Source: a virus | Length of the DNA stretch: 11,126 nucleotides | Strand: one strand, 5' to 3' | Virus genome (UHGV): UHGV-0334114 | In this document: positions 1 through 11,126 of the stretch, one piece after another | Layout: each line of letters starts with the position of its first letter | How positions within the stretch are numbered: the stretch's first letter is position 1 | Program-made: the position numbers and the translations under genes | Notes under the pieces: model-generated | What the model was told of the DNA's origin: nothing | Database searches by the model: none | What the model saw: the letters and a program-made list of their open reading frames with translations, nothing else

Positions 1-276
1 GAATTTTTTGTTCAGGTCTGGGGAAATGGAGCCAACTTCGACAACACGATTTTGCGCCGTTCATACGAACGGCAGGGGATCCCCTGCCCATGGCGTTACT
101 ACAACGATCGCGATGTACGCACAATCGTTGAGCTGGGGAAAGCCATAGACTTCGATGCCAGAACGGCTATTCCATTCGAAGGTGAGCGCCATAATGCACT
201 TGATGACGCCCGTTACCAGGCAAAATACGTTTCAGTTATCTGGCAAAAACTGATCCCGAATCAGGCTGATTTTTAA
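1..276 (+). CDS. 3'-5' exonuclease, DnaQ-like DEDDh family (C-terminal part; gene starts upstream of window)
   Basis: Frame 1 is open from base 1 (EFFVQVWGNGANFD...), so the gene enters from upstream; the listed ORF start at 52 is an internal TTG. Contains GANFD and HNALDDARYQAKY motifs typical of Exo II/Exo III motifs of DEDDh exonucleases. Sits upstream of xis-int, where lambdoid phages carry recombination/exonuclease genes. Confidence 0.7.
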   Translation, partial: EFFVQVWGNGANFDNTILRRSYERQGIPCPWRYYNDRDVRTIVELGKAIDFDARTAIPFEGERHNALDDARYQAKYVSVIWQKLIPNQADF

Positions 277-340
277 TGTTCAACCCCGGTCGTTGCCCAC
301 CAGCTATAGTGGCGGCGACCATGATTAGCGAACGACGCTC

Positions 341-589
341 ATGGCAAGACTTATTCTGCTCACTGAGTGGGCAAAAGAGGAATTCAGTGAACCGGTCCCT
401 ACTCCGAGTACGTTAAGTAAATACGCTAAAGCCGGAATGATATTTCCTCTCCCCAAAAAAGTTGGAAGACGCTGGCGAGTGGATCCGCAAGCTCGCTTTG
501 TCGGAATGGTAAACAAGCCGGAGGTGATCGCCACAGATCACCCTGCTTTGAAGAGGATACTGGAAGATGGCGCGCCCGCGAAAATATAA
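341..589 (+). CDS. xis: excisionase / recombination directionality factor (Xis-like)
   Basis: 82-aa ORF immediately upstream of int, overlapping it by 23 bp (567-589) as xis/int do in lambda. The basic motif IFPLPKKVGRRWRV resembles lambda Xis (IFPPPVKDGREY, from memory). No obvious Shine-Dalgarno, so the start is uncertain. Confidence 0.6.
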   Translation: MARLILLTEWAKEEFSEPVPTPSTLSKYAKAGMIFPLPKKVGRRWRVDPQARFVGMVNKPEVIATDHPALKRILEDGAPAKI

Positions 590-1697
590 AACCGATGTTC
601 CGGGATTATCTCCGTATTTTGACAAAAGAAATAACAAAGTTTACTGGCGTTACAGGCATCCCATAACAGGCAAAAATCACGGTCTCGGCAGTATTGACCA
701 GAAACTGGCAGAAACTATTGCAGCAGAAGCGAACAGCCGTCTTGCCCGGCAGCAAATGGAACAAATGCTCAGTCTGCAGGAGAAAATTATTAGTGATACC
801 GGCGGTTCATCAACCGTTACCATTTTTCTGAATAATTACAGAAAAATTCAACAGGAAAGATATGAAAACGGCGAGATCAAACTCAACACGCTGAAACAGA
901 AAGCGGCCCCTCTCAGGGTATTTGATGAACGTTTTGGCACCAGACCGTTAGATGCCATAACCGTAAAAGATGTGGTATCAGTACTGGAAGAGTACAAGGC
1001 CAGAGGACATAACAGAATGGGACAAATTTTCAGGAAAGTACTGATCGATGTTTTCCGGGAAGCTCAGCAAACGGGCGATGTCCCGCCAGGCTTTAACCCT
1101 GCAGAATCGGCAAAAAAACCGCAGGTGCGGATATCAAGACAGCGACTGACTTTTGATGAGTGGATGATGATTTATAACGCAGCGGAAAAGGATGGTTACT
1201 TTTTACAGCGCGGTATGCTGCTGGCACTGATGACAGGCCAGCGCCTTTCAGATATTTGCAAAATGCAATTTTCGGATATCCGGGATGGTTATCTTCATGT
1301 CGAACAGCAAAAAACAGGAACCCGGATTGCCATCCCTCTGGCTCTGCGTTGCGATAAATTAAATCTCACCCTGGATGATGTGGTGTCATCCTGCCGCGAT
1401 TGCGTTCTTAGTCCGTGGCTATTGCACCACCATCACGCGAAAGGGACAGCTAAGCGCGGCGGGATGGTTAAGCCAGCAACATTAACCGTTGCATTTAAAA
1501 AAGCCCGGGATTCTGTGGATTACAACTGGCGTGCTAATGGCACCCCACCCTCTTTCCATGAGCAGAGATCTTTATCAGAGCGATTGTTCAGAGAGCAGGG
1601 GGTTGATACCAAAATTTTGCTAGGCCATTCGAATCAAAAAATGACCGATATTTACAACGACGCACGCGGTAAGGAATGGAAAAAACTGGTCATTTGA
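567..1697 (+). CDS. int: tyrosine site-specific integrase, lambda Int family
   Basis: 376 aa. The C-terminal catalytic domain aligns by eye to lambda Int: TGQRLSD (Arg), EQQKTG (Lys), FHEQRSLSERL (His/Arg), LLGHSNQKMTDIY (His and Tyr nucleophile). AGAGGA Shine-Dalgarno 9 nt upstream of the ATG at 567. N-terminal arm-binding region is diverged from lambda Int. Confidence 0.95.
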   Translation: MARPRKYKTDVPGLSPYFDKRNNKVYWRYRHPITGKNHGLGSIDQKLAETIAAEANSRLARQQMEQMLSLQEKIISDTGGSSTVTIFLNNYRKIQQERYENGEIKLNTLKQKAAPLRVFDERFGTRPLDAITVKDVVSVLEEYKARGHNRMGQIFRKVLIDVFREAQQTGDVPPGFNPAESAKKPQVRISRQRLTFDEWMMIYNAAEKDGYFLQRGMLLALMTGQRLSDICKMQFSDIRDGYLHVEQQKTGTRIAIPLALRCDKLNLTLDDVVSSCRDCVLSPWLLHHHHAKGTAKRGGMVKPATLTVAFKKARDSVDYNWRANGTPPSFHEQRSLSERLFREQGVDTKILLGHSNQKMTDIYNDARGKEWKKLVI

Positions 1698-2455: not shown

Positions 2456-3040
2456 TTACTCCCTGACAGGGTTCGTAGGCCACTCAATATCAGGTGCAGT
2501 TGATGTATCAACACGGTTCAGCAACACCCGATACTTTTTCCAGGCTTCCAGCAATGAGGTTTCTTCCTCCGTTGCAATTTCCAGATCTGCAGCATCCTGA
2601 AGCGGCGCAATATGCTCACTGGCTACCTGCATCAGGTTGTTTTTTGTTTCTTCCGCCTCCCGGATCCGGAACAGTTTTTCTGCTTCCGTATCCTTCACCC
2701 AGGCTGTGCCGTTCCACTTCTGAAACTCCCCTTCCGGCGATAACCAGGTAACATTTTCCGGTAACGGACCGAGTTCAGAAATAAATAACTCGTCCCCTGA
2801 CGCTACGTCATAAACCGTTTTCCCCCGATGGTCTTCAACGAGATGCCACGATGCCTCATCACTGTTGAAAACAGCCACAAAGCCAGCAGGAATATCTGGT
2901 GGTGCAATATCGGTACTGTTTGCTGGCAGACCTGTATGAGGCGGAATATATGCGTCACCTTCACCAATAAATTCATTAGTTCCGGCCAGCAGATTATAAA
3001 TTTTTATGGTCCGTGCTTGTTCACTCATTCTGAATGCCAT
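2456..3040 (-). CDS. tfa: tail fibre assembly protein (lambda Tfa-like)
   Basis: 194 aa, the same length as lambda Tfa and near-identical to it as I recall ([50 protein letters not shown]...). Its ATG overlaps the stf stop (TAATG). Confidence 0.9.
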
Positions 3041-6000
3041 TATGCAAGCCTCACAATATAGTTAAATGCGATGTTTTTGACGGTGTTTTCCGCGTTACCC
3101 GCAGCGTTAACGGTGATGGTGTGTCCATGTGAACCAATCGCAACGGAGTGCGTATGCGCACCAATACCTACAGTATGTGCATGTGCGCCAGAACTTGCTG
3201 CAGTACCAGACAGCGAGTGGGTATGAGCACCTGCTGACTGTGTCTGAATACGTTGATAATACGATCTATAGGAAGAAGTCTCCGGGCTTACTTGATACTG
3301 TGAATTCTGGACATAAGTGAACCCACCGCCATCATAAAATGCTAACGCAGAACCGCCGCCTCCTGGCCAACGAATACCATTACCATGAGTATGAACACCG
3401 GCAGACCCCGTAGAGCCACTCAGACTGTGCGTATGCGCCCCGGTGTTATTCGTGGATTTAGTGCCGTAATCAAACGACGATGTGGTTTTCGTCCCCAAAT
3501 CCGTACTGGATGCGCTGGCGCTGTGGGTGTGCGATTTTATGCCGTCCTGTTCCTGAGACAATACGGCCCGGCCACTGGCGGGTTTGCCCTTAATCGTCCA
3601 GCCACGCATATCAGGGATCACGCCTGACGGATAAGCCGCTGCAAGTTTCGGGTAGGCAGATTTGTTAAAAGTCTGCCCCTGCATCAGGGCATAACCAGAC
3701 GGAACGGTATCTGATGGCCACGGGATTGGTGCGCCAACTGGGTAGCTTTCTGGTGGAAGATTTTTCGAGGTATAAACTTCTGCCCAGTCTTCCTCAAAAC
3801 CATAACCGTCTCTTGAAGAACGGTAGAACAGACCACGATTTCTGTAATGCGCCTTCATCTGCAGGGTCCGGCAACTTCCGACTCCGGTATAGAAGTTAAC
3901 CAGAATATAGCTGTCGCCAGAGCGGGCGACATTGTAAGCGCCTGATTCGGCATTCCAGGGAACGGCTCCATTCGAATCCGCATAAGCCCCCGTCGAACGT
4001 CGGGCAAATGCACCAATATTTTCCGGCGTGAGGTTAATATCCGCCGAGCCATCAAACTTAACACCGTTAATTTTTGGGGCTGCCGCAAGTTTCGTCGCGG
4101 TATCGGCGTTCCCCTTCAGTGCCCCGGTGATCCCATCAGTAACAGACAACGGACCTGAAATAGTCCCTCCAGTCGTTGGCAGCGCTCCAATATCTGATGG
4201 TGTAGGTTTCTGATGTGAGCTATACATCGTATAAACAACACCACCGGTAACGCTGGAAGGCTTACTCGCTGAATATGTTGGCGAGGTATAAATAGAAACT
4301 GACGCATTTGCAGTACAATCCCAATGGATATTTACACTCGTCGCATAATTGCCAATCTCAACGTAAATATCATATGTATCGCCGGATGTGTTGATCCAGG
4401 CGAAATTCGTTAATCCGACGGCTGTACGCTTCCACAAAGCCCCGGTAATTCCTTTGGGGTTTCCATTGCCTGCTCGTAGAACCAGTTCTGAAATGCCTGC
4501 CTGATGTGGGGAACCGACGTTGTAACCAGCGCCACCAATCAATGCGATGTAAACGATGGAACTCGCTTGTGGCATGGTAACCGTTGCCAGTTTGAACCAC
4601 CCAGCCCCGCCAGAGAAAGAGATCGTTACTGAATTTAAAGTGCCAATATCTTTCGGTGTTAATGTTATATCCGCAGTCAGTGCTTTCCCGTTAACTTTTC
4701 GGTTAGATGGTACCCTGCCATTCGCATTGTCATTCGCTGCTTTAACTGCCTTCGGTGTCGCGGCAAGCGTTTCAGATGTGATGTTGGTCGCACTGCTGAG
4801 CTGTACTATCCCCTTTTTCGTCGTACTTGCATCCTCAAGCGCCACGGCGGATGCAATATCCTCTGCCCGTTTTGCCGCTGTCTCGGCGCGCGTTGCCGCG
4901 GATTCCGCCGTACTTTTGCTCTGTGCTGCCGCCGTCGCACTGCCAGCTGCCTCTGTCGCCTTCGCGGATGCTGTCGTGGCGCTGCCCTTCGCTGCTGACG
5001 CCTGTCTGGTCGCCTCATCTTTTGAAGCAGACGCCGATGATGCCGATGACGCCGCCGAACTGGCGGACGATGCGGCAGCCGTTTTTGAGGATTCTGCGCT
5101 GGTCTCCGACGCTTTCGCGTTCGTCTCCGATGTCTTCGCTGCGGAAGCAGACCTCGCTGCTGCACTGGCCTGTTCAGTGGCTTCGCCAGCCTTCGTTGTG
5201 GCTGTTGAAGCGGACGATGCGGCGCTTTCTGCCGATTTTCCGGCGGCGCTAGCACTGGCTGAGGCCTGCCCGGCACTTGTTGACGCTGCACTGGCAGACG
5301 ACGCAGCCGCTGTTTTTGAGCCTGCTGCTGCGGAGGCACTCTGTGCTGCTGCCGTTTCAGAGGACTTAGCGTTTGTCTCAGACGTCTTTGCCGCCTTCGC
5401 GGAATTTCCTGCCGCCGTTGCCGAGGAAGCGGCATTACTGGCGCTCGAGGCTGCGCTCGTTTCTGATAATTTTGCCGCCTCTTTTGAAGCCGACGCATCT
5501 CTGGCTGAGGTGGCTGCTTCTGACGCTTTCGTGGTCGCGGTGGATGCAGAAGTGGCAGCTGATTGTTGTGACGCTGCCGCATTCGTTTCTGACGTTTTCG
5601 CCGCACCGGCACTGGTGGCCGCCGCGCTTTTTGAGGACTCTGCAGCGGCAGCACTTTTTGATGCTTCAGTGGCCTTTGCTGATGCCGTTCCTGCGCTGGA
5701 AGACGCAGACTGAGCCGACGAAGCGGCCTGTCCGGCTGACGTGCTGGCTGCTCGTGCTGAGCCTGCAGCATCAGTCGCACGGGTTGCCGCCTCACGGGCT
5801 GATGTGCTGGCATCGCTGGCTGATTTCTTCGCGGCTGCCGTGTTCTGTGCCACCGCGGACGCGTTACGCGCCACCTCTTCCACCATCAGTTCAAAGCGGC
5901 GCAGTGCCTCAGGACGGGCATCATCCTCCGTCATGGCACCGAGAAAATCATTCAGCGTACCGGGTCGGGAATCTTCATACACGGTGATGGTCCCGGCATG

Positions 6001-6210
6001 TGACGGCGGGAATCCTTCCACCAACAGAATAACGCTGTACTGACCGTACTCAACGTCCATGCTGTAACGCCCGGCTTCATCCGGATTTTCTGAGGCCAGC
6101 GTGTTCACCACCACCGTGGTGCTGTTACGTTTTGCTTTCAGCTGGATTGTGCAGTTCTGTACCGGTTTTCCTGTGCCGTCTTTCAGTACACCTGAAATCT
6201 TTACTGCCAT
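3040..6210 (-). CDS. stf: side tail fibre protein (Stf; lambda Stf / Rac StfR-like, mosaic)
   Basis: Preferred start is the ATG at 6210 ([26 protein letters not shown]..., as in lambda Stf), with GGGGTGA just upstream; the listed ORF starts at a GTG at 6216. Has a long Ala/Ser/Thr-rich repeat tract, repeated GAHTHSLSG/HxH motifs, and a conserved C-terminus [22 protein letters not shown]. Confidence 0.9.
4820..5860 (-). repeat. in-frame low-complexity Ala/Ser/Thr-rich repeat tract inside stf
   Basis: Reiterated peptide units (AKTSETNA three times, STATTKA.EAT twice, SAASSAS...), with matching nucleotide-level reiteration. This composition generates the long spurious ORFs in other frames (4556-5713 +, 4806-5813 -, 5373-5987 +). 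Confidence 0.7.
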
Positions 6211-6220
6211 ATTCACCCCA

Positions 6221-6274: not shown

Positions 6275-6874
6275 TCAGAATTTATAACCGACACCAACGA
6301 TGAAACTGTTGGTACGCCAGTCACCGCTGCCGGAGCCTTCATAAGCGACATCAACGGCCACGGATTCTGTCGGGTTAAACTGCACGCCAGCCCCCCACGC
6401 CAGAGACGTGTTGCTGTGGCGATCGTCATCACTTCCGGTCAGCACATCGTGCGTTTTCCCCGTATTGTCGGTCACCTGCAGATAATCCCCGGAGAAAGTC
6501 GACACACGGCTGTAAGCCACACCCGCCATCGCATACGCGCTGAACCATTCATTCACGCGCACAGACGGCCCCGCCATCACGCTGAACCAGCGGTTACGCA
6601 CGGAATCTTCATGCCAGCGGGTATCGCTGTAATGCGTTTTTTGCTCATCTTCAGCGTTGGCATAACTGAATGACGTAATCAGCCCCAGCGTGTCCGTAAA
6701 CTCATAACGGTATTTCACGTTAATCCCGTTCAGATTATCGCTGCCGGGAGCGTTCGTACGGGCATGAAGATACCCTGCGCTCAGTGTGGCCTGCTGCTCA
6801 GACGCCCATGCAGGCGCACCGGATACGGCCAGACAGATGGCTGCGGACAAAATGGCTGCACAAACTTTACGCAT
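6275..6874 (-). CDS. lom: outer-membrane protein Lom (Ail/Lom/PagC family beta-barrel), moron
   Basis: 199 aa with an N-terminal signal peptide ([24 protein letters not shown]). The C-terminus [26 protein letters not shown] matches lambda Lom. GAGG Shine-Dalgarno upstream. Sits between J and stf as in lambda. Confidence 0.9.
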
Positions 6875-6941: not shown

Positions 6942-9900
6942 TCAGCTAATCGTGATGCCTGTAGTGGCTTTCTTCATCACCACAACCAGCAAATCGCTGA
7001 TACTTGCTGTGGGATACCAGTTATTTACCAGCCATGCTGACACCGAAAACTCCAGTGTCATGTGACCGTGACCGGCAGGCATATCAATAACGCCACTGTA
7101 AATCAGCGTATTATCCAGCGCGGTACGGTTATAAATTTCAGCACCGTTTTTCCGCACTATCAGACGGCATGAGGAGTAAATATCAGTATGCTCTTTCTCA
7201 TGTTTAGCGCCGCTGAATGCCACCGCCGGAATAACAATCTGCCGGTCAAACGGCTGATCGTCATAAACCCTGACGGTAATGGTTCCTGATGGCCACCGCT
7301 CCGGTGCACGGGAGTCCCGGGGGAAAGCTTTGCCCACTGTTTTAACGAGATCGCCTTCAATCTGGTTCGCGGACAATTTTCCCAGAACCCGACAGTTCTC
7401 GTTAATCGTGACGTTGTTGAGCGTCCCGGAGTTCGCATTCACGTTACCGCTGATATCGGCATTTTTCGCCGTCAGCCGCCCGTCCGGTGTCAGGGAAAAT
7501 GCCGGAGGATTACCGCCGCTGGTAATGGTGGGGGCCGTCAGGCGTTTCAGGAACACTTCATTCATGAATATCTGATCGCCCTGACCAACAAACATCGGCT
7601 TTGTGTTGCCATTCGCAGGATTAATCATCGCAATCCTGTCTGCTGCCAGCAGCACCTGACTCTGCATGCCGTCAGGGGTGTTCTCAATACCGGCACCGAT
7701 ACCCGCAATATAAAGGCGTCCGTCCTGCATCTGCTGCAGCTTCACTGCCCACATGCTGTTCAGGTTATTATTTGTATCAACCTGAACCTTCTGTATCTGC
7801 TGGATCGCTGCACTCTGGTCTTCCAGTTTCTTATTGACGGTCTGTGTTATTTCATTGCTGACATCCGTTATGGACGTCCTGATTTCAGTCAGGTCAGGCG
7901 CAAGCTGACCGTTATCAATCTGCGTCCACAGCTCCTGAGCCAGATGGGTTTTCCCTATCTCGCCTTTGAAAAAATCCAGATAGCCTGATGCATCATCACT
8001 CGGCTGACCGACAGCCTCCACGAATGCCGATTTGCCAACGGTGTTCACACTGCGAACGTAAAAATAATAATCATGGCCCGGTTTGATATTGATACTGGCG
8101 GCTATCCAGTACAGTGCCGTACCAAGATAACGCGCGCTGGTTTCAACCTGCCTGATATCCGCAATCCGTTTTTCCGAGAACCAGAACTCAAACTGTACCG
8201 TCGGATCATAAACCGCAAGATGCGGCGTGGCGGTTATCTGAAAATAGCCCGGCGTCAGCTCAATCCGCGACGGTGCTGCCGGTGCGGCAATCCGGAATGA
8301 TACCGACGCCGGATCACCCTGCTGCCCCCAGGCATTTACCGCCCTGACTGTCAGCCTGTAGTTCCCCAGCGCCAGCTGCCTGAAGCGGTATGTGGTTTCC
8401 GTCGTCCGGGCCGTGCTGACCAGCCGCTCACTGCCGTCATCCGCTGTTACGGTCAGACGGAGCAGGAAGCTCACGCCCTTCACCACCTTCGGCGTGTCCC
8501 AGCAGGCCAGCACCTGATATTCCCCGCTGTCTGCGGTGACTTCGGCAGTCAGGTGCTGCACCGCTGGCGGCGTGACACCATTCACCGTGCCGCTCTGGTC
8601 GCCGTCAAAGTGCGCCCCGTTATCCACGATGGCTTCTTTTTCCGGTACATGCTGCACGGCGGTGATGGCATACGTGCCGTCGTCGTTCTCACGGATACTC
8701 ACGCAGCGGAACAGGCGCTGGCGCAGCGTCGGCAGCTTCAGCCCCCACACGCTGTATCCGGCAACGCCGTCAGGAACACGGCTCACTTTTACCTTCACGC
8801 CGTCGGTGACGGACTGGACCTCCACGCTGACCGGATTGCCACTTCCGTCAACCAGGCTTATCAGCGTGGTACCGGAGGATGGCAGCGTGATTTCACGGTC
8901 GAGCGTCAGCGTCCGGGTCTGGCTGTTCACCGCCAGCACGCGCCCGCCGATGCTGATACCCGCATAGTCATCATCGCAGATTTCAATGACATCCCCCGGT
9001 ACATGGCGAAGCCCTTCCGCACCCACGCTGAAGTCCACGGTCTGCGTTTCCAGCAGTTCCGTTTTAATCAGCCACAGCCCGGCGCGGTGTGCCTGCCCCC
9101 GGCTGGTACAGCCAAAGGCATCCATCTTCGTGACGTTACGACCGTAACGGAGAATGGCCTGCGTATCTTCAACAAGCTCTGTCGCCGTCTCCCAGCCGTT
9201 ATCCGGGTCAATCCAGTTCACCTCAACGGCATTATGGCGGTCCTTCAGGGCGCTGAAGCTGTAGCGGAACGGCGCGCCATCATCCGGCATCACCACATTA
9301 CTGCGGTTATAGGTCCACACCTTATCCGACGGTCGGTCCTGCACGAACGTCAGCGTCTGCCCGTTCCATACCGGCATACAGCGCATCGCCGAGCAGAAAT
9401 CACTGAGAACATCCCACGCCTTACGCTGTGTGGTCAGCCAGGCATTACAGGTGATGCGCGGCTCCGTGCCACCAAAGCCATCCGGCACCGACTGGTCGCA
9501 ATTCTGGCCGATGACATACAGCGCCCATTTGTCCACATCCGCCGCACCGAGACGCTTCCCCATGCCGTAGCGCGGATGGGTCAGCATATCCCACAGACAC
9601 CAGGCCATGTTGTTGCTGTATGCCGGTTTAAACGTCCCGTCCCAGATACCGTTGTATTGCCGCGTCTGCGGGTTATAGTTCGACGGCACCTGCAGAATGC
9701 GCCCGCGAAGATGATAATTACGGCTCACCTGCTGGCTGCCGAACTGCTCCGAATCCACCTGCACGCCGACCAGTGCCGTGTTCGGGTAGCCCTGTTTCAC
9801 ATCGATGATTTCGGTGTATGACGACCAGAGCGTTTTGTTCTGCAGCTGGTCTGTGGTGCTGTCCGGCGTCATCCTGCGCATCCGTATATTGAACGGGCGC

Positions 9901-10421
9901 GGCGGCAGGTTACCCACCACCACCGAGGCCAGATACTGCGAGGTGGTTTTGCCCTTAATGGTGATGTCTTTTTCCGTCACCCAGCCACCATTACGTTGTA
10001 TCTGAACCAGCAGGCGAACTTCCGACGGATTCCTGTCCCCCTTTGAGGTGGTTTCCACCAGTGCCTGCACACCGAAGGTAAAACGCAGTCGGTCAATGTT
10101 TGCCGACGTGATGGTCCGGGTGATCGGCGTGTCGTATTTCACTTCCGTACCCAGTACCGTCTCGGAACCTGATGATTCAAATCCCTCCGGCGGTGTCTGT
10201 TCCTGCTCACCTGCCCGGAACACCACCGTGACACCAGAGATGTTAGTATTCCCCTCACTGTCCAGCACCGGTGTACTGTTCAGCAGCACGCTTTTTAATC
10301 CATCCACCGGACCTTCAACCGGCCCTTCGCTGATGGCATCGATCACACTCAGCAGCTGCGTGGACTTCAGGTTGTCCCTCGCTTCGCGCGGGGTATGCCC
10401 CTTACTGCTTCCTTTACCCAT
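6942..10421 (-). CDS. J: tail tip attachment / host specificity protein J
   Basis: 1159 aa. The N-terminus [34 protein letters not shown] and most of the protein match lambda J as I recall it. GAGGA Shine-Dalgarno directly upstream of the ATG. A central segment and the C-terminal ~150 aa (receptor-binding region) are clearly diverged from lambda J. Confidence 0.95.
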
Positions 10422-10444
10422 TCCTCACACTCCATAAACAACAA

Positions 10445-10463
10445 AGCCGCCCAAAAGGCGGCT
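10445..10463 (-). terminator. possible intrinsic terminator downstream of the lipoprotein moron
   Basis: On the - transcript: AGCCGCC-UUUUG-GGCGGCU (7-bp stem) followed by the U-rich UUGUUGUUUAUGG. Lies 25 bp after the lipoprotein stop and about 25 bp before the J start. The U tract is interrupted. Confidence 0.4.
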
Positions 10464-10487
10464 CATGAGTTACGGCAGGATTAACTA

Positions 10488-10826
10488 TTATTTACATGCA
10501 TTAACACTATCAGCAAAAATTTTTGGCGTTAATGCTGGTACACGTTCATAAAGAGTAAAACTACTGCCATTTCCTGCTTTTTTGATATCAAGCACAACAT
10601 CATATCCCCCCATAGCCTGTGGAACTAAAAGGCTTACCCCATTCTCAATAGGAAGGGATGTTATAGGTGTTCCATTACCAGCCCATTGTCTGGATATGCA
10701 GCCTGACAATTCATCAATATTTTTTAATGAATTACCTTCCATTACAGGTTTTCCGGATTTTACGTAATCCAAAGACTTACATCCTGTTAAGGCAATAATC
10801 GTGCAGAATAAAATCGTTTTGTTCAT
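10488..10826 (-). CDS. small secreted lipoprotein of unknown function (moron inserted between tail genes I and J)
   Basis: Preferred start is the ATG at 10826, giving MNKTILFCTIIALTGC..., a classic lipoprotein signal peptide with lipobox LTGC; the listed ORF starts 4 codons earlier at a TTG. Mature part is about 95 aa with two further Cys. The gene and its flanks are markedly AT-rich compared with I and J. No good Shine-Dalgarno seen. Confidence 0.7.
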   Translation of the reverse strand: MNKTILFCTIIALTGCKSLDYVKSGKPVMEGNSLKNIDELSGCISRQWAGNGTPITSLPIENGVSLLVPQAMGGYDVVLDIKKAGNGSSFTLYERVPALTPKIFADSVNACK

Positions 10827-10898
10827 ATAGCTAACCAATAGAATAATTATCAGTGTTCGATATAAATATTAAATCAGTTAGAACATGAGTAAATAATA

Positions 10899-11126
10899 TT
10901 ACCGCCCAATTACCACAACCTGACCACCATCCCCTTCATCTGCCGTGCTGATCTCCTGAGATGCCACACGTGACCCCACGCGCATTTCACCGTACAGAAC
11001 AGGCAGGACATTGCCCTGGGCAACCATGTTATCCAGTGAGGAGAAATAGGTGTTCTGTTTGCCGTTATCCGTTGTCTGTGTACGGGGAGTTCTGGCTTTC
11101 GGTGCCAGCATCTGCGCCACACCACC
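10899..11126 (-). CDS. I: tail assembly protein I (C-terminal part; gene starts beyond window end)
   Basis: The frame is open to the window edge (GGVAQMLAPKARTPRTQTTDNGKQNTYFSSLDNMVAQGNVLPVLYGEMRVGSRVASQEISTADEGDGGQVVVIGR then stop), matching the C-terminus of lambda gpI as I recall it. The listed start at 11120 is an internal GTG. Confidence 0.85.
   Translation of the reverse strand, partial: GGVAQMLAPKARTPRTQTTDNGKQNTYFSSLDNMVAQGNVLPVLYGEMRVGSRVASQEISTADEGDGGQVVVIGR

What the first reader, a model, noticed from the sequence alone, without database searches (positions are those of the whole stretch)
10422..10898. AT-rich lipoprotein moron inserted between tail genes I and J, next to a diverged J receptor-binding domain
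In lambda, I and J are directly adjacent. Here about 480 bp of AT-rich DNA separates them and encodes a 112-aa lipoprotein (lipobox LTGC, two extra Cys), followed by a hairpin plus U-rich tract before the J ribosome-binding site. That is the architecture of a horizontally acquired moron. Small phage-encoded outer-membrane lipoproteins near tail genes (T5 Llp, phi80/N15/HK022 Cor) block the phage's own receptor and give superinfection exclusion. The adjacent J C-terminus is the part that diverges from lambda, so the lipoprotein may be a receptor-masking partner matched to this J specificity. I do not recognise the protein family, so the function is a hypothesis.
Basis: partly seen in the sequence, partly recalled or inferred. 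Interest (0 to 1): 0.72.

Follow-up and report, generated by a model that had tools for sequence, protein, structure and literature searches.

The report
Uncharacterised lipoprotein cassette in phage tail genes
A 430-bp AT-rich insert between tail genes I and J of a lambda-like E. coli prophage encodes a real, conserved outer-membrane lipoprotein of unknown function that travels with lambda-type tail-tip genes in many bacteria, but it is not a partner matched to this phage's receptor-binding domain.

Summary
About 430 bp of 29-40% GC DNA (window ~10466-10895, minus strand) separate I from J and encode a 112-aa lipoprotein: lipobox LTGC, Lys at +2, and two further Cys that are nearly invariant in the family. 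The hairpin plus U-tract before J did not arrive with the insert, because lambda's empty I-J spacer already has it.

The protein matches phrog_914 (unknown function) and no Pfam or PADLOC family. It is not homologous to Cor, T5 Llp, or the mEp021/mEp010 exclusion lipoproteins. The phiKO2 homologue gp19 was annotated "putative moron".

The family usually lies immediately 5' of I, in Klebsiella, Kluyvera, Yersinia, Serratia, Pseudomonas-like and soil phages. It sometimes lies between T and H, and lies between I and J only in E. coli. In 12 of 13 phage loci a terminator-like hairpin follows the gene.

The "matched to this J" idea fails. The 98-100% identical lipoprotein sits beside at least four J C-terminal types. 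This J type is in 3350 of 5426 E. coli genomes, the insert in about 335.

Most likely it is an envelope-level exclusion or conversion factor that works independently of J's receptor specificity. That function is inferred, not shown.

The parts
10899..11126 (-). 3' end of tail-tip gene I (cut off by the window end); stop codon at 10899-10901
   Evidence: The translation is 97% identical to lambda I residues 149-223.
10466..10895 (-). The inserted cassette: about 430 bp that replace about 17 bp of the lambda-type I-J spacer
   Evidence: Alignment with the empty sites of lambda and vB_EcoS-689R5. GC fraction 0.29-0.40 against 0.54-0.60 in the flanks. Present at 95% identity or more in 333-337 of 5426 complete E. 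coli genomes.
10827..10898 (-). 72-nt AT-rich leader with weak sigma-70-like hexamers: TTTACT-16/17-TAATAT/AATATT (10893 to 10865) and TTTAAT-16-GATAAT (10873 to 10846)
   Evidence: A custom scan found at most 8-9 of 12 matches. The tool's own scan reported none on this strand. The score is not above background: 11% of control windows score as well.
10488..10826 (-). Lipoprotein CDS: 112 aa plus stop. The signal peptide is residues 1-15 (10782-10826), and the lipobox Cys16 codon is at 10779-10781.
   Evidence: ORF and translation. phrog_914 match at E 7e-33. The family alignment keeps Cys16, Cys43 and Cys111. AlphaFold2 model with pLDDT 83.7. RefSeq lists it as WP_001332187.1, 'hypothetical protein'.
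10434..10464 (-). Terminator-like hairpin GAGCCGCC-TTTT-GGGCGGCTT (10444-10464) followed by a T-rich tract. It is ancestral to the I-J spacer.
   Evidence: The same element is in lambda and 689R5, which have no insert.
10430..10433 (-). GGAG ribosome-binding site of J, 8 nt before the ATG
   Evidence: Read from the sequence. It is identical in lambda.
6942..10421 (-). Tail-tip and host-specificity gene J (1159 aa). The C-terminal part from about residue 806 (6942-8006) diverges from lambda J. The last 170 aa are at 6945-7454.
   Evidence: BLASTP against lambda J gives 83% identity overall. The C-terminal type is shared with VT1-Sakai, PPompW and Stx2a phages and with 3350 of 5426 E. coli genomes.

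Best explanation
The insert is one copy of a mobile accessory cassette of lambda-type tail modules. It is a small gene, normally followed by an intrinsic terminator.

Predicted protein: the product is a lipoprotein that Lol should sort to the inner leaflet of the outer membrane. The evidence is lipobox LTGC, Lys at +2, and no Asp at +2 anywhere in the family. The mature 97-residue protein (Cys16 to Lys112) has a short tether and then a compact alpha/beta domain. Two nearly invariant Cys (43 and 111) probably pin that domain with a disulfide.

Predicted expression: because the gene lies in the late tail operon in the sense orientation, the Q-antiterminated late transcript must transcribe it. 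Any constitutive transcription in a lysogen would stop at the hairpin before J.

Proposed function: I think it is most likely an envelope-level exclusion or conversion factor that acts at the periplasmic face of the outer membrane. It would act independently of which receptor J recognises. One possibility is that it interferes with a step common to lambda-type tail tips after adsorption, such as outer-membrane insertion of gpI or exit of gpH. Another is that it acts on a conserved envelope component.

Shown: the gene, the family, the lipoprotein signature, the synteny, the terminators, and the lack of linkage to J's receptor-binding domain. Inferred: localisation, the disulfide, expression in lysogens, and every functional statement.
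For: - Gene and family: (125 clusters at 50% identity).
- Lipoprotein signature: 126 of 129 full-length members have a lipobox Cys, none has Asp at +2, and 117 keep both other Cys.
- Fold: pLDDT 83.7, alpha/beta.
- Position in lambda-type tail modules, always on the sense strand:
  - I|J in E. coli.
  - Immediately 5' of I in Fraca, phiKO2, Serratia OS31, Kluyvera, Klebsiella, Yersinia, a soil contig and 13 of 13 further IMG/VR loci.
  - T|H, the slot of the HK97 gene 15 exclusion moron, in Enterobacter (PMC3594210).
- A terminator-like hairpin follows the gene in 12 of 13 phage loci.
- Independence from the J receptor-binding domain.
- The lipoprotein is exchanged independently of I, K and L. 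For example, Fraca and locus L066 share K at 94% identity but their lipoproteins at 22%.
- Precedents for exclusion genes in or beside tail genes: HK97 gp15 and Cor (PMC3594210), and Lpp021 and Lpp010 (PMC11893012).
- gpI is a virion tip protein whose hydrophobic helices are proposed to enter the outer membrane (PMC11101478, PMC12617516). This puts a phage component within reach of an inner-leaflet lipoprotein.
Against: - There is no experimental or transcriptomic evidence for any function, and no paper mentions the protein.
- There is no match to any PADLOC defence model.
- Lipoprotein divergence does not track I any better than it tracks K or L, so nothing points to a specific pairing with I.
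- Promoter predictions are inconsistent. In several loci the gene abuts or overlaps K, which leaves no room for its own promoter.
- A Shimwellia homologue is chromosomal, next to ecotin and outside any prophage. The fold can therefore serve a non-phage role.
Confidence: 0.4

Rival explanations
1. Receptor mask matched to this J. Like T5 Llp or Cor, the lipoprotein would bind and inactivate the specific outer-membrane receptor recognised by the adjacent J C-terminal domain.
For: It is a small outer-membrane lipoprotein next to the host-specificity gene. Llp, Cor and Lpp010 provide precedents (PMC3594210, PMC11893012). Most sampled insert-bearing loci (25 of 37 with a complete J) do carry the window's J type.
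Against: The same lipoprotein occurs with at least four J C-terminal types. This J type is about ten times more common than the insert in E. coli, and it occurs in 52 phage records that lack the insert. Close homologues accompany J proteins of 1186 to over 3100 aa in other genera. There is no homology to Cor, Llp, Lpp021 or Lpp010.
Confidence: 0.1
2. Bor-like lysogenic conversion that is unrelated to phages. The lipoprotein would alter envelope properties of the lysogen, such as serum or stress resistance, adhesion or protease tolerance, and so benefit the host.
For: The insert is present in pathogenic lineages: UTI89, S88, 042, O104:H4 and APEC strains. The nearest solved structure is Flpp3, deposited as a Francisella tularensis virulence determinant. 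A chromosomal homologue lies beside ecotin in Shimwellia. Lambda itself carries the envelope morons bor and lom, and a lom homologue follows J in this window.
Against: The gene keeps a tight, deeply conserved position inside tail-tip modules, including in soil and Pseudomonas phages. That is not expected for a host-niche virulence factor. There is no homology to Bor/Iss, since Pfam gave no hit. Own-promoter evidence is weak.
Confidence: 0.2
3. A late-cycle function for the phage's own burst. Made from the late transcript, the lipoprotein would modify the outer membrane of the dying cell so that progeny are not inactivated on debris and vesicles, or it would assist lysis and egress.
For: The gene is always sense-oriented within the late tail operon. 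In several loci it abuts or overlaps K with no spacer, which implies co-expression with late genes.
Against: The conserved terminator straight after the gene fits a unit that is also transcribed without antitermination. The gene is not in the lysis cassette and does not resemble the o-spanin Rz1. There are no data on debris inactivation.
Confidence: 0.15
4. A passenger with no selected function in this prophage.
For: No function has been shown. PGAP even truncates the gene to 84 aa in some genomes.
Against: The ORF is intact at 98-100% identity in most of the sampled insert-bearing loci and the insert is at least 95% identical in all 337 genomes that carry it. The lipobox and both other Cys are kept over deep divergence, and the synteny is conserved.
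Confidence: 0.05

Closest known systems
phrog_914, including Klebsiella phage phiKO2 gp19 (annotated 'putative moron gene product')
   Same: The protein matches the phrog_914 profile over its full length at E 7e-33. phiKO2 gp19 is a family member, 48.6% identical to the Fraca homologue. It lies in the tail module and is followed by an annotated terminator.
   Different: phiKO2 gp19 lies between K and I, not between I and J. It belongs to a subfamily only about 25% identical to the window protein. No function is known for any member.
HK97 gene 15 moron (gp15 superinfection exclusion protein)
   Same: Both are an extra small envelope-protein gene inside the tail operon. The Enterobacter homologue of the window protein occupies the same T|H slot as HK97 gene 15 (PMC3594210). 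gp15 acts on DNA entry without blocking the receptor, and it also has chromosomal relatives (YebO). The lipoprotein family likewise has a chromosomal member in Shimwellia.
   Different: gp15 is an inner-membrane protein of the YebO family, not a lipoprotein, and the two proteins have no sequence relationship. Exclusion by the window protein is untested.
Cor (phi80, N15, HK022, T1 group) and T5 Llp
   Same: These are small phage-encoded outer-membrane lipoproteins encoded near host-specificity genes, with conserved Cys residues.
   Different: There is no homology. Against the Fraca Cor only the signal peptide aligns. Against PDB 8a60_B (the deposited 'lytic conversion lipoprotein', which I take to be T5 Llp) only residues 1-19 align, at E 0.12. 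Neither appears among the fold matches. Cor and Llp act on FhuA, whereas the window protein is not linked to any one J type. Fraca encodes both a family member and a Cor.
mEp021 Lpp021 and mEp010 Lpp010 exclusion lipoproteins
   Same: They are lipoproteins encoded in the structural gene cluster of temperate coliphages. Expression from a plasmid was shown to exclude phages that use OmpA or LamB (PMC11893012).
   Different: They are 72 and 82 aa, are encoded downstream of J on the opposite strand, and are not homologous beyond the signal peptide.
Francisella Flpp3 (DUF3568) and the BamC N-terminal domain
   Different: Sequence identity is only 6-10% and no Pfam family is matched. The fold class is generic, because KA1, DUF302 and Bet v 1-like proteins score similarly.

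Membership tests
Bacterial lipoprotein (Lgt/LspA/Lnt substrate) | N-terminal signal peptide with a positive n-region, a hydrophobic h-region and a lipobox [LVI][ASTVI][GAS]C | tested here: met
   The N-terminus reads MNK-TILFCTIIA-LTGC. A lipobox-like Cys is conserved in 126 of 129 full-length family members. LPAM_1 hits occur in some members.
Bacterial lipoprotein (Lgt/LspA/Lnt substrate) | Outer-membrane sorting: no Asp at position +2 | tested here: met
   Position +2 is Lys here. Across the family it is A, S, K, T, V, G, E, I, L, Q, Y or M, and never D. Actual localisation is inferred from the +2 rule.
Bacterial lipoprotein (Lgt/LspA/Lnt substrate) | Acylation and globomycin-sensitive processing | not testable with these tools
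   This needs labelling and fractionation experiments.
Moron (Juhala/Hendrix sense) | An extra gene between two genes that are adjacent in related phages | tested here: met
   Lambda and 689R5 have I and J separated by only about 60 nt.
Moron (Juhala/Hendrix sense) | Nucleotide composition different from the flanks | tested here: met
   GC fraction is 0.29-0.40 against 0.54-0.60 in the flanks. The gene is 0.37 against 0.56-0.58 in the flanks.
Moron (Juhala/Hendrix sense) | Its own terminator | tested here: inconclusive
   A good hairpin with a T tract follows the gene, but it pre-exists in empty sites. In other slots 11 of 12 phage homologues are followed by such a hairpin.
Moron (Juhala/Hendrix sense) | Its own promoter | tested here: inconclusive
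   Only 8-9 of 12 hexamer matches were found in AT-rich DNA, which is not above background.
Moron (Juhala/Hendrix sense) | Expression from the repressed prophage | not testable with these tools
   This needs RNA-seq or 5'-RACE on a lysogen.
phrog_914 | A significant full-length match to the profile | tested here: met
   E 7.3e-33, protein residues 1-112 against profile positions 1-118 of 118.
Cor superinfection exclusion lipoprotein | Sequence homology of the mature protein | tested here: not met
   The family HMM aligns only the signal peptide of the Fraca Cor. No Pfam hit at E up to 1.
T5 Llp (lytic conversion lipoprotein) | Sequence or fold similarity to Llp (PDB 8a60_B) | tested here: not met
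mEpimmI Lpp021 / Lpp010 | Sequence homology of the mature protein | tested here: not met
   Only the signal peptides align.
Lambda Bor / Iss | A match to a Pfam model covering Bor/Iss | tested here: not met
   No Pfam family matched at E up to 1.
Known anti-phage defence systems (PADLOC) | A match to any PADLOC protein model | tested here: not met
   Zero families matched at E up to 1.
DUF3568 / Flpp3 | Sequence membership in the Pfam family | tested here: not met

The most novel reading that the evidence does not exclude
The lipoprotein is a receptor-independent exclusion factor aimed at the penetration machinery of lambda-type tail tips. Anchored on the periplasmic face of the outer membrane, it would intercept the gpI hairpin or N-domain, or the gpH C-terminus that gpI releases, as they cross the outer membrane. 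It would thereby block DNA entry by superinfecting phages, and abortive ejection of progeny on debris, whichever receptor J uses. This would explain three observations: the gene sits beside I across Enterobacteria, Pseudomonas-like and soil phages; it ignores the J receptor-binding-domain type; and it is restricted to modules with the L-K-I-J tip genes.
Probability: 0.2. Interest if true: 0.75.

Novelty: new member of a known kind. Interest (0 to 1): 0.42.

Why it matters
About 6% of complete E. coli genomes carry this gene, including UTI89, S88, 042, O104:H4 and APEC strains. Relatives sit in the tail modules of prophages of Klebsiella, Enterobacter, Yersinia and Pseudomonas-like hosts. Yet it has no name, no Pfam family and no paper.

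If it excludes phages, it would be a new, widespread envelope-level resistance determinant, which matters for phage therapy host-range prediction. It would also be a handle on how lambda-type tails cross the outer membrane, a step that recent cryo-EM work describes as unresolved.

If it is a conversion factor instead, it adds to the bor/lom class of prophage envelope genes found in pathogens.

The test is simple: clone one 339-bp gene and plate a phage panel on the strain expressing it.

Tried and rejected
Searches that led nowhere:
- The genome-contig scan returned only one locus.
- The afdb50 fold library was unavailable.
- The diverse alignment A3 had no stretch conserved enough for a viral scan.
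- The phiKO2 paper could not be retrieved.
- Literature searches for WP_001300316 and WP_001332187 found nothing, and moron/lipoprotein term searches found nothing on this protein.

Analyses that were uninformative:
- I tested for co-evolution by comparing pairwise identities of the lipoprotein with those of I, K and L. The correlations were low and equal for all three (0.35-0.41 within K|I loci), so this gives no support for a specific lipoprotein-I pairing.
- The promoter scan across 14 loci was inconsistent.

Ideas considered and rejected:
- o-spanin (Rz1): the genomic context and composition are wrong.
- Tail assembly factor or virion component: a Sec/Lsp-exported lipoprotein cannot meet cytoplasmic tail assembly.
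- The 1047-aa and 782-aa hits to the family profile (P0091, P0115): P0091 is an Ig_7 repeat protein, so that match is spurious; P0115 matched no Pfam family and was not explained.
- The hairpin as the insert's own terminator: rejected for this site.
- The phiAH14a tail-slot lipoprotein p83 as a family member: only the signal peptide and tether align.

Full report
**What is in the window.**
All the relevant genes are on the minus strand. The window ends inside tail-tip gene I (10899-11126), whose product is 97% identical to lambda I over residues 149-223. J starts at 10421 and runs to 6942, giving 1159 aa. Between them lie 477 nt with a GC fraction of 0.29-0.40, against 0.54-0.60 on either side.

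The ORF from ATG 10826 to the stop at 10488-10490 encodes MNKTILFCTIIALTGCKSLDYV...NACK, 112 aa. It has a positive n-region, a hydrophobic core, the lipobox LTGC, Lys at +2, and two further Cys in the mature part (Cys43, Cys111).

**Boundaries, and the hairpin.**
I aligned the region with the empty I-J junctions of lambda and phage vB_EcoS-689R5. About 430 bp (approximately 10466-10895) replace about 17 bp of spacer.

The hairpin GAGCCGCC-TTTT-GGGCGGCTT with its T-rich tail (10434-10464) scores -16.7 kcal/mol for the 39-nt stretch 10434-10472, z = -4.3. It is not part of the insert. Lambda has AAACCGCC-TGC-GGGCGGTTT at the same place, with a compensatory stem change, and the sequence from the hairpin to the J start is conserved. 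The claim that the insert arrived with its own terminator is therefore wrong for this site.

**The protein family.**
- The protein matches phrog_914 ("unknown function") end to end at E 7e-33.
- It has no Pfam hit, no meaningful NCBIfam hit and no PADLOC hit.
- The exact sequence is on at least 1000 contigs, named only "hypothetical protein", "lipoprotein" or "phage protein".
- RefSeq carries it as WP_001332187.1 in UTI89 and 042, but as a truncated 84-aa call, WP_001300316.1, in strain AR_0017.
- Homologues of 48-62% identity occur in Kluyvera, Klebsiella, Enterobacter and Jejubacter.
- A profile search of 1.8 billion representatives found 125 clusters, nearly all 105-125 aa.
- Of 129 full-length members, 126 have a lipobox-like Cys, none has Asp at +2, and 117 keep both other Cys. 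Cys16, Cys43 and Cys111 are invariant in a 36-sequence alignment whose mean column identity is 32%.
- No Pfam family covers any of the 36 members scanned.

**Structure.**
The AlphaFold2 model has mean pLDDT 83.7. It shows a short helix, a five-stranded sheet and two helices, and the two conserved Cys lie in those two helices. The best structural neighbours are:
- DUF302 and KA1 domains;

All share only 4-13% identity with the model, so the resemblance is generic. Among viral models only a family member from Pseudomonas phage phiAH14a matches.

**Where the family lives.**
- In E. coli the gene sits between I and J. Of the complete genomes, 334 have the whole I-insert-J junction. All of the near-identical IMG/VR loci in which both flanks could be read show the same order.
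- Elsewhere it lies immediately 5' of I, after K. This holds in coliphage Fraca, phiKO2 (gp19, "putative moron gene product"), Serratia OS31, Kluyvera and Klebsiella.
- In Yersinia, 4.7 kb of immI-like cargo separates it from K, but it still abuts I.
- In a forest-soil contig the K stop codon overlaps its start.
- It lies immediately 5' of I in 13 of 13 further IMG/VR loci of Pseudomonas-like and soil subfamilies.
- In an HK97-like Enterobacter prophage it lies between T and the tape-measure gene. That is the slot of the HK97 gene 15 moron (PMC3594210).
- phiAH14a carries a second copy of the pair "family lipoprotein plus I paralogue" on the immunity side of its genome.
- Shimwellia blattae has a chromosomal copy next to ecotin.

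The I|J position seen in the window is therefore the exception, and "immediately 5' of I" is the rule.

**Terminators and promoters across the family.**
In 12 of 13 phage loci the gene is followed, within 40-65 nt, by a GC-rich stem, a run of T and then the ribosome-binding site of the next tail gene. Many of these stems (CCGCC...GGCGG) resemble the lambda I-J hairpin.

Promoter-like hexamers upstream are good in a few loci (Fraca, OS31, Yersinia) and absent in others. Several loci have no upstream spacer at all. In the window, the 72-nt leader has only 8-9 of 12 matches.

The "gene plus terminator" half of the moron architecture is thus well supported for the family. An independent promoter is not established.

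**Is it matched to J?**
No, for four reasons.
1. Among IMG/VR loci with a 98-100% identical lipoprotein and a complete J, the last 170 aa of J fall into at least four types. Twenty-five loci have the window type. Six have a type 44% identical to it, three a type 63% identical, and two a type that does not align.
2. The window's J C-terminal DNA is present in 3350 of 5426 complete E. coli genomes, while the insert is in 333-337.
3. Fifty-two phage records, including VT1-Sakai, PPompW and Stx2a phages, have this J C-terminus at 95% identity or more. No record in the phage collection has the lipoprotein above 31% identity.
4. Across genera, lipoproteins 52-58% identical to this one sit in modules whose I, K and L are only 33-43% identical to the E. 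coli ones, and whose J proteins range from 1186 to over 3100 aa. Conversely, Fraca and locus L066 share K at 94% identity but their lipoproteins at 22%. The cassette is exchanged independently of the tail genes.

**Comparison with known exclusion lipoproteins.**
The family HMM aligns only the signal peptides of Fraca Cor, mEp021 Lpp021 and mEp010 Lpp010. Lpp021 and Lpp010 were shown experimentally to exclude phages (PMC11893012). A profile search of PDB sequences finds the chain deposited as "lytic conversion lipoprotein" (8a60_B), which I take to be T5 Llp, only through residues 1-19, at E 0.12. The protein may work like these lipoproteins, but it is not a member of their families.

**Mechanism.**
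*Shown:* a conserved exported lipoprotein gene, placed in the sense orientation in the late tail operon, usually followed by a terminator, and mobile between slots and between phage lineages.

*Inferred:*
- outer-membrane inner-leaflet location, from the +2 rule;
- a Cys43-Cys111 disulfide;
- obligatory late expression from the antiterminated transcript;
- possible lysogenic expression that would stop at the hairpin.

*My preferred reading* (confidence about 0.4) is an envelope-level exclusion or conversion factor whose target is common to many hosts or to lambda-type tips, rather than a particular receptor. Recent structures show gpI as a virion plug whose hydrophobic helices are proposed to insert into the outer membrane (PMC11101478, PMC12617516). 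That makes a gpI- or gpH-directed block conceivable, but the identity matrices give no specific support for it.

*Rivals:*
- a J-matched receptor mask (0.1);
- Bor-like conversion unrelated to phages (0.2);
- a late-cycle role protecting progeny or aiding egress (0.15);
- a functionless passenger (0.05).

**Verdict.**
The feature is real. It is a widespread and uncharacterised family, with a prior "putative moron" annotation in phiKO2. It is a new family-level example of a known kind of thing, namely prophage tail-module envelope morons. Interest is moderate: the surprise is limited, but the gene is common, unnamed and very easy to test.

Noticed in passing
window 2499-2697 (-): There is a full-length Rfam hit to IS009 (RF02111), 225 bits against a gathering score of 117. 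It lies entirely inside the tail-fibre assembly ORF at 2456-3040.
   Followed up: no
window 52-1697 (+) against 2456-6216 (-): An exonuclease fragment, Xis (341-589) and a lambda-type integrase (567-1697) converge on the tfa and stf genes, with about 750 bp between them. This is a phage-form (attP-like) junction or a pair of tandem prophages. Only 9 of 5426 E. coli genomes have this junction; in the five best matches the record span is about 1 kb longer than the query and includes a methyltransferase gene that the window lacks.
   Followed up: partly
window 10488-10826 (-); L001 14109-14363: PGAP annotates the gene as a truncated 84-aa protein (WP_001300316.1, starting at the internal Met29) in strain AR_0017, but as the full 112-aa lipoprotein (WP_001332187.1) in UTI89 and 042. 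The conserved signal peptide shows that the long form is correct.
   Followed up: yes
window 10434-10464 (-); L003 764-790: Lambda's own I-J spacer holds a terminator-like hairpin that is conserved with a compensatory stem change. Very similar CCGCC...GGCGG stems, each with a T run and a GGAG, precede I, H or J in distant phages. This could be a shared boundary or linker element of tail operons.
   Followed up: partly
L090 4962-5948; L093 16239-17310 (Pseudomonas phage phiAH14a): This phage has two 'lipoprotein then I' pairs. One is in the tail module, with an unrelated 140-aa lipoprotein p83 followed by I (p84). The other is downstream of the repressor, with the family member p33 followed by an I paralogue p32. 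p33 is mis-called in the record; the true ORF is 115 aa. p32 is 79% identical to p84, and the C-terminal ~80 residues are almost identical.
   Followed up: partly
L096 2266-7000 and L097 (Yersinia prophages): The K-to-I interval has grown to about 4.7 kb. It carries Arc/Mnt-like repressors and Bro-N/ANT/KilA-N antirepressor genes, an immI-like module, ahead of the lipoprotein.
   Followed up: no
L094 7001-7339 (Shimwellia blattae chromosome): A family member 38% identical to the window protein is chromosomal. It lies between a yidB-like gene and ecotin, near copC/copD/yebY, with no phage genes within 7 kb.
   Followed up: no
window 6275-6874 (-): A full-length Ail/Lom outer-membrane protein gene follows J, so this tail region carries two envelope accessory genes.
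   Followed up: no
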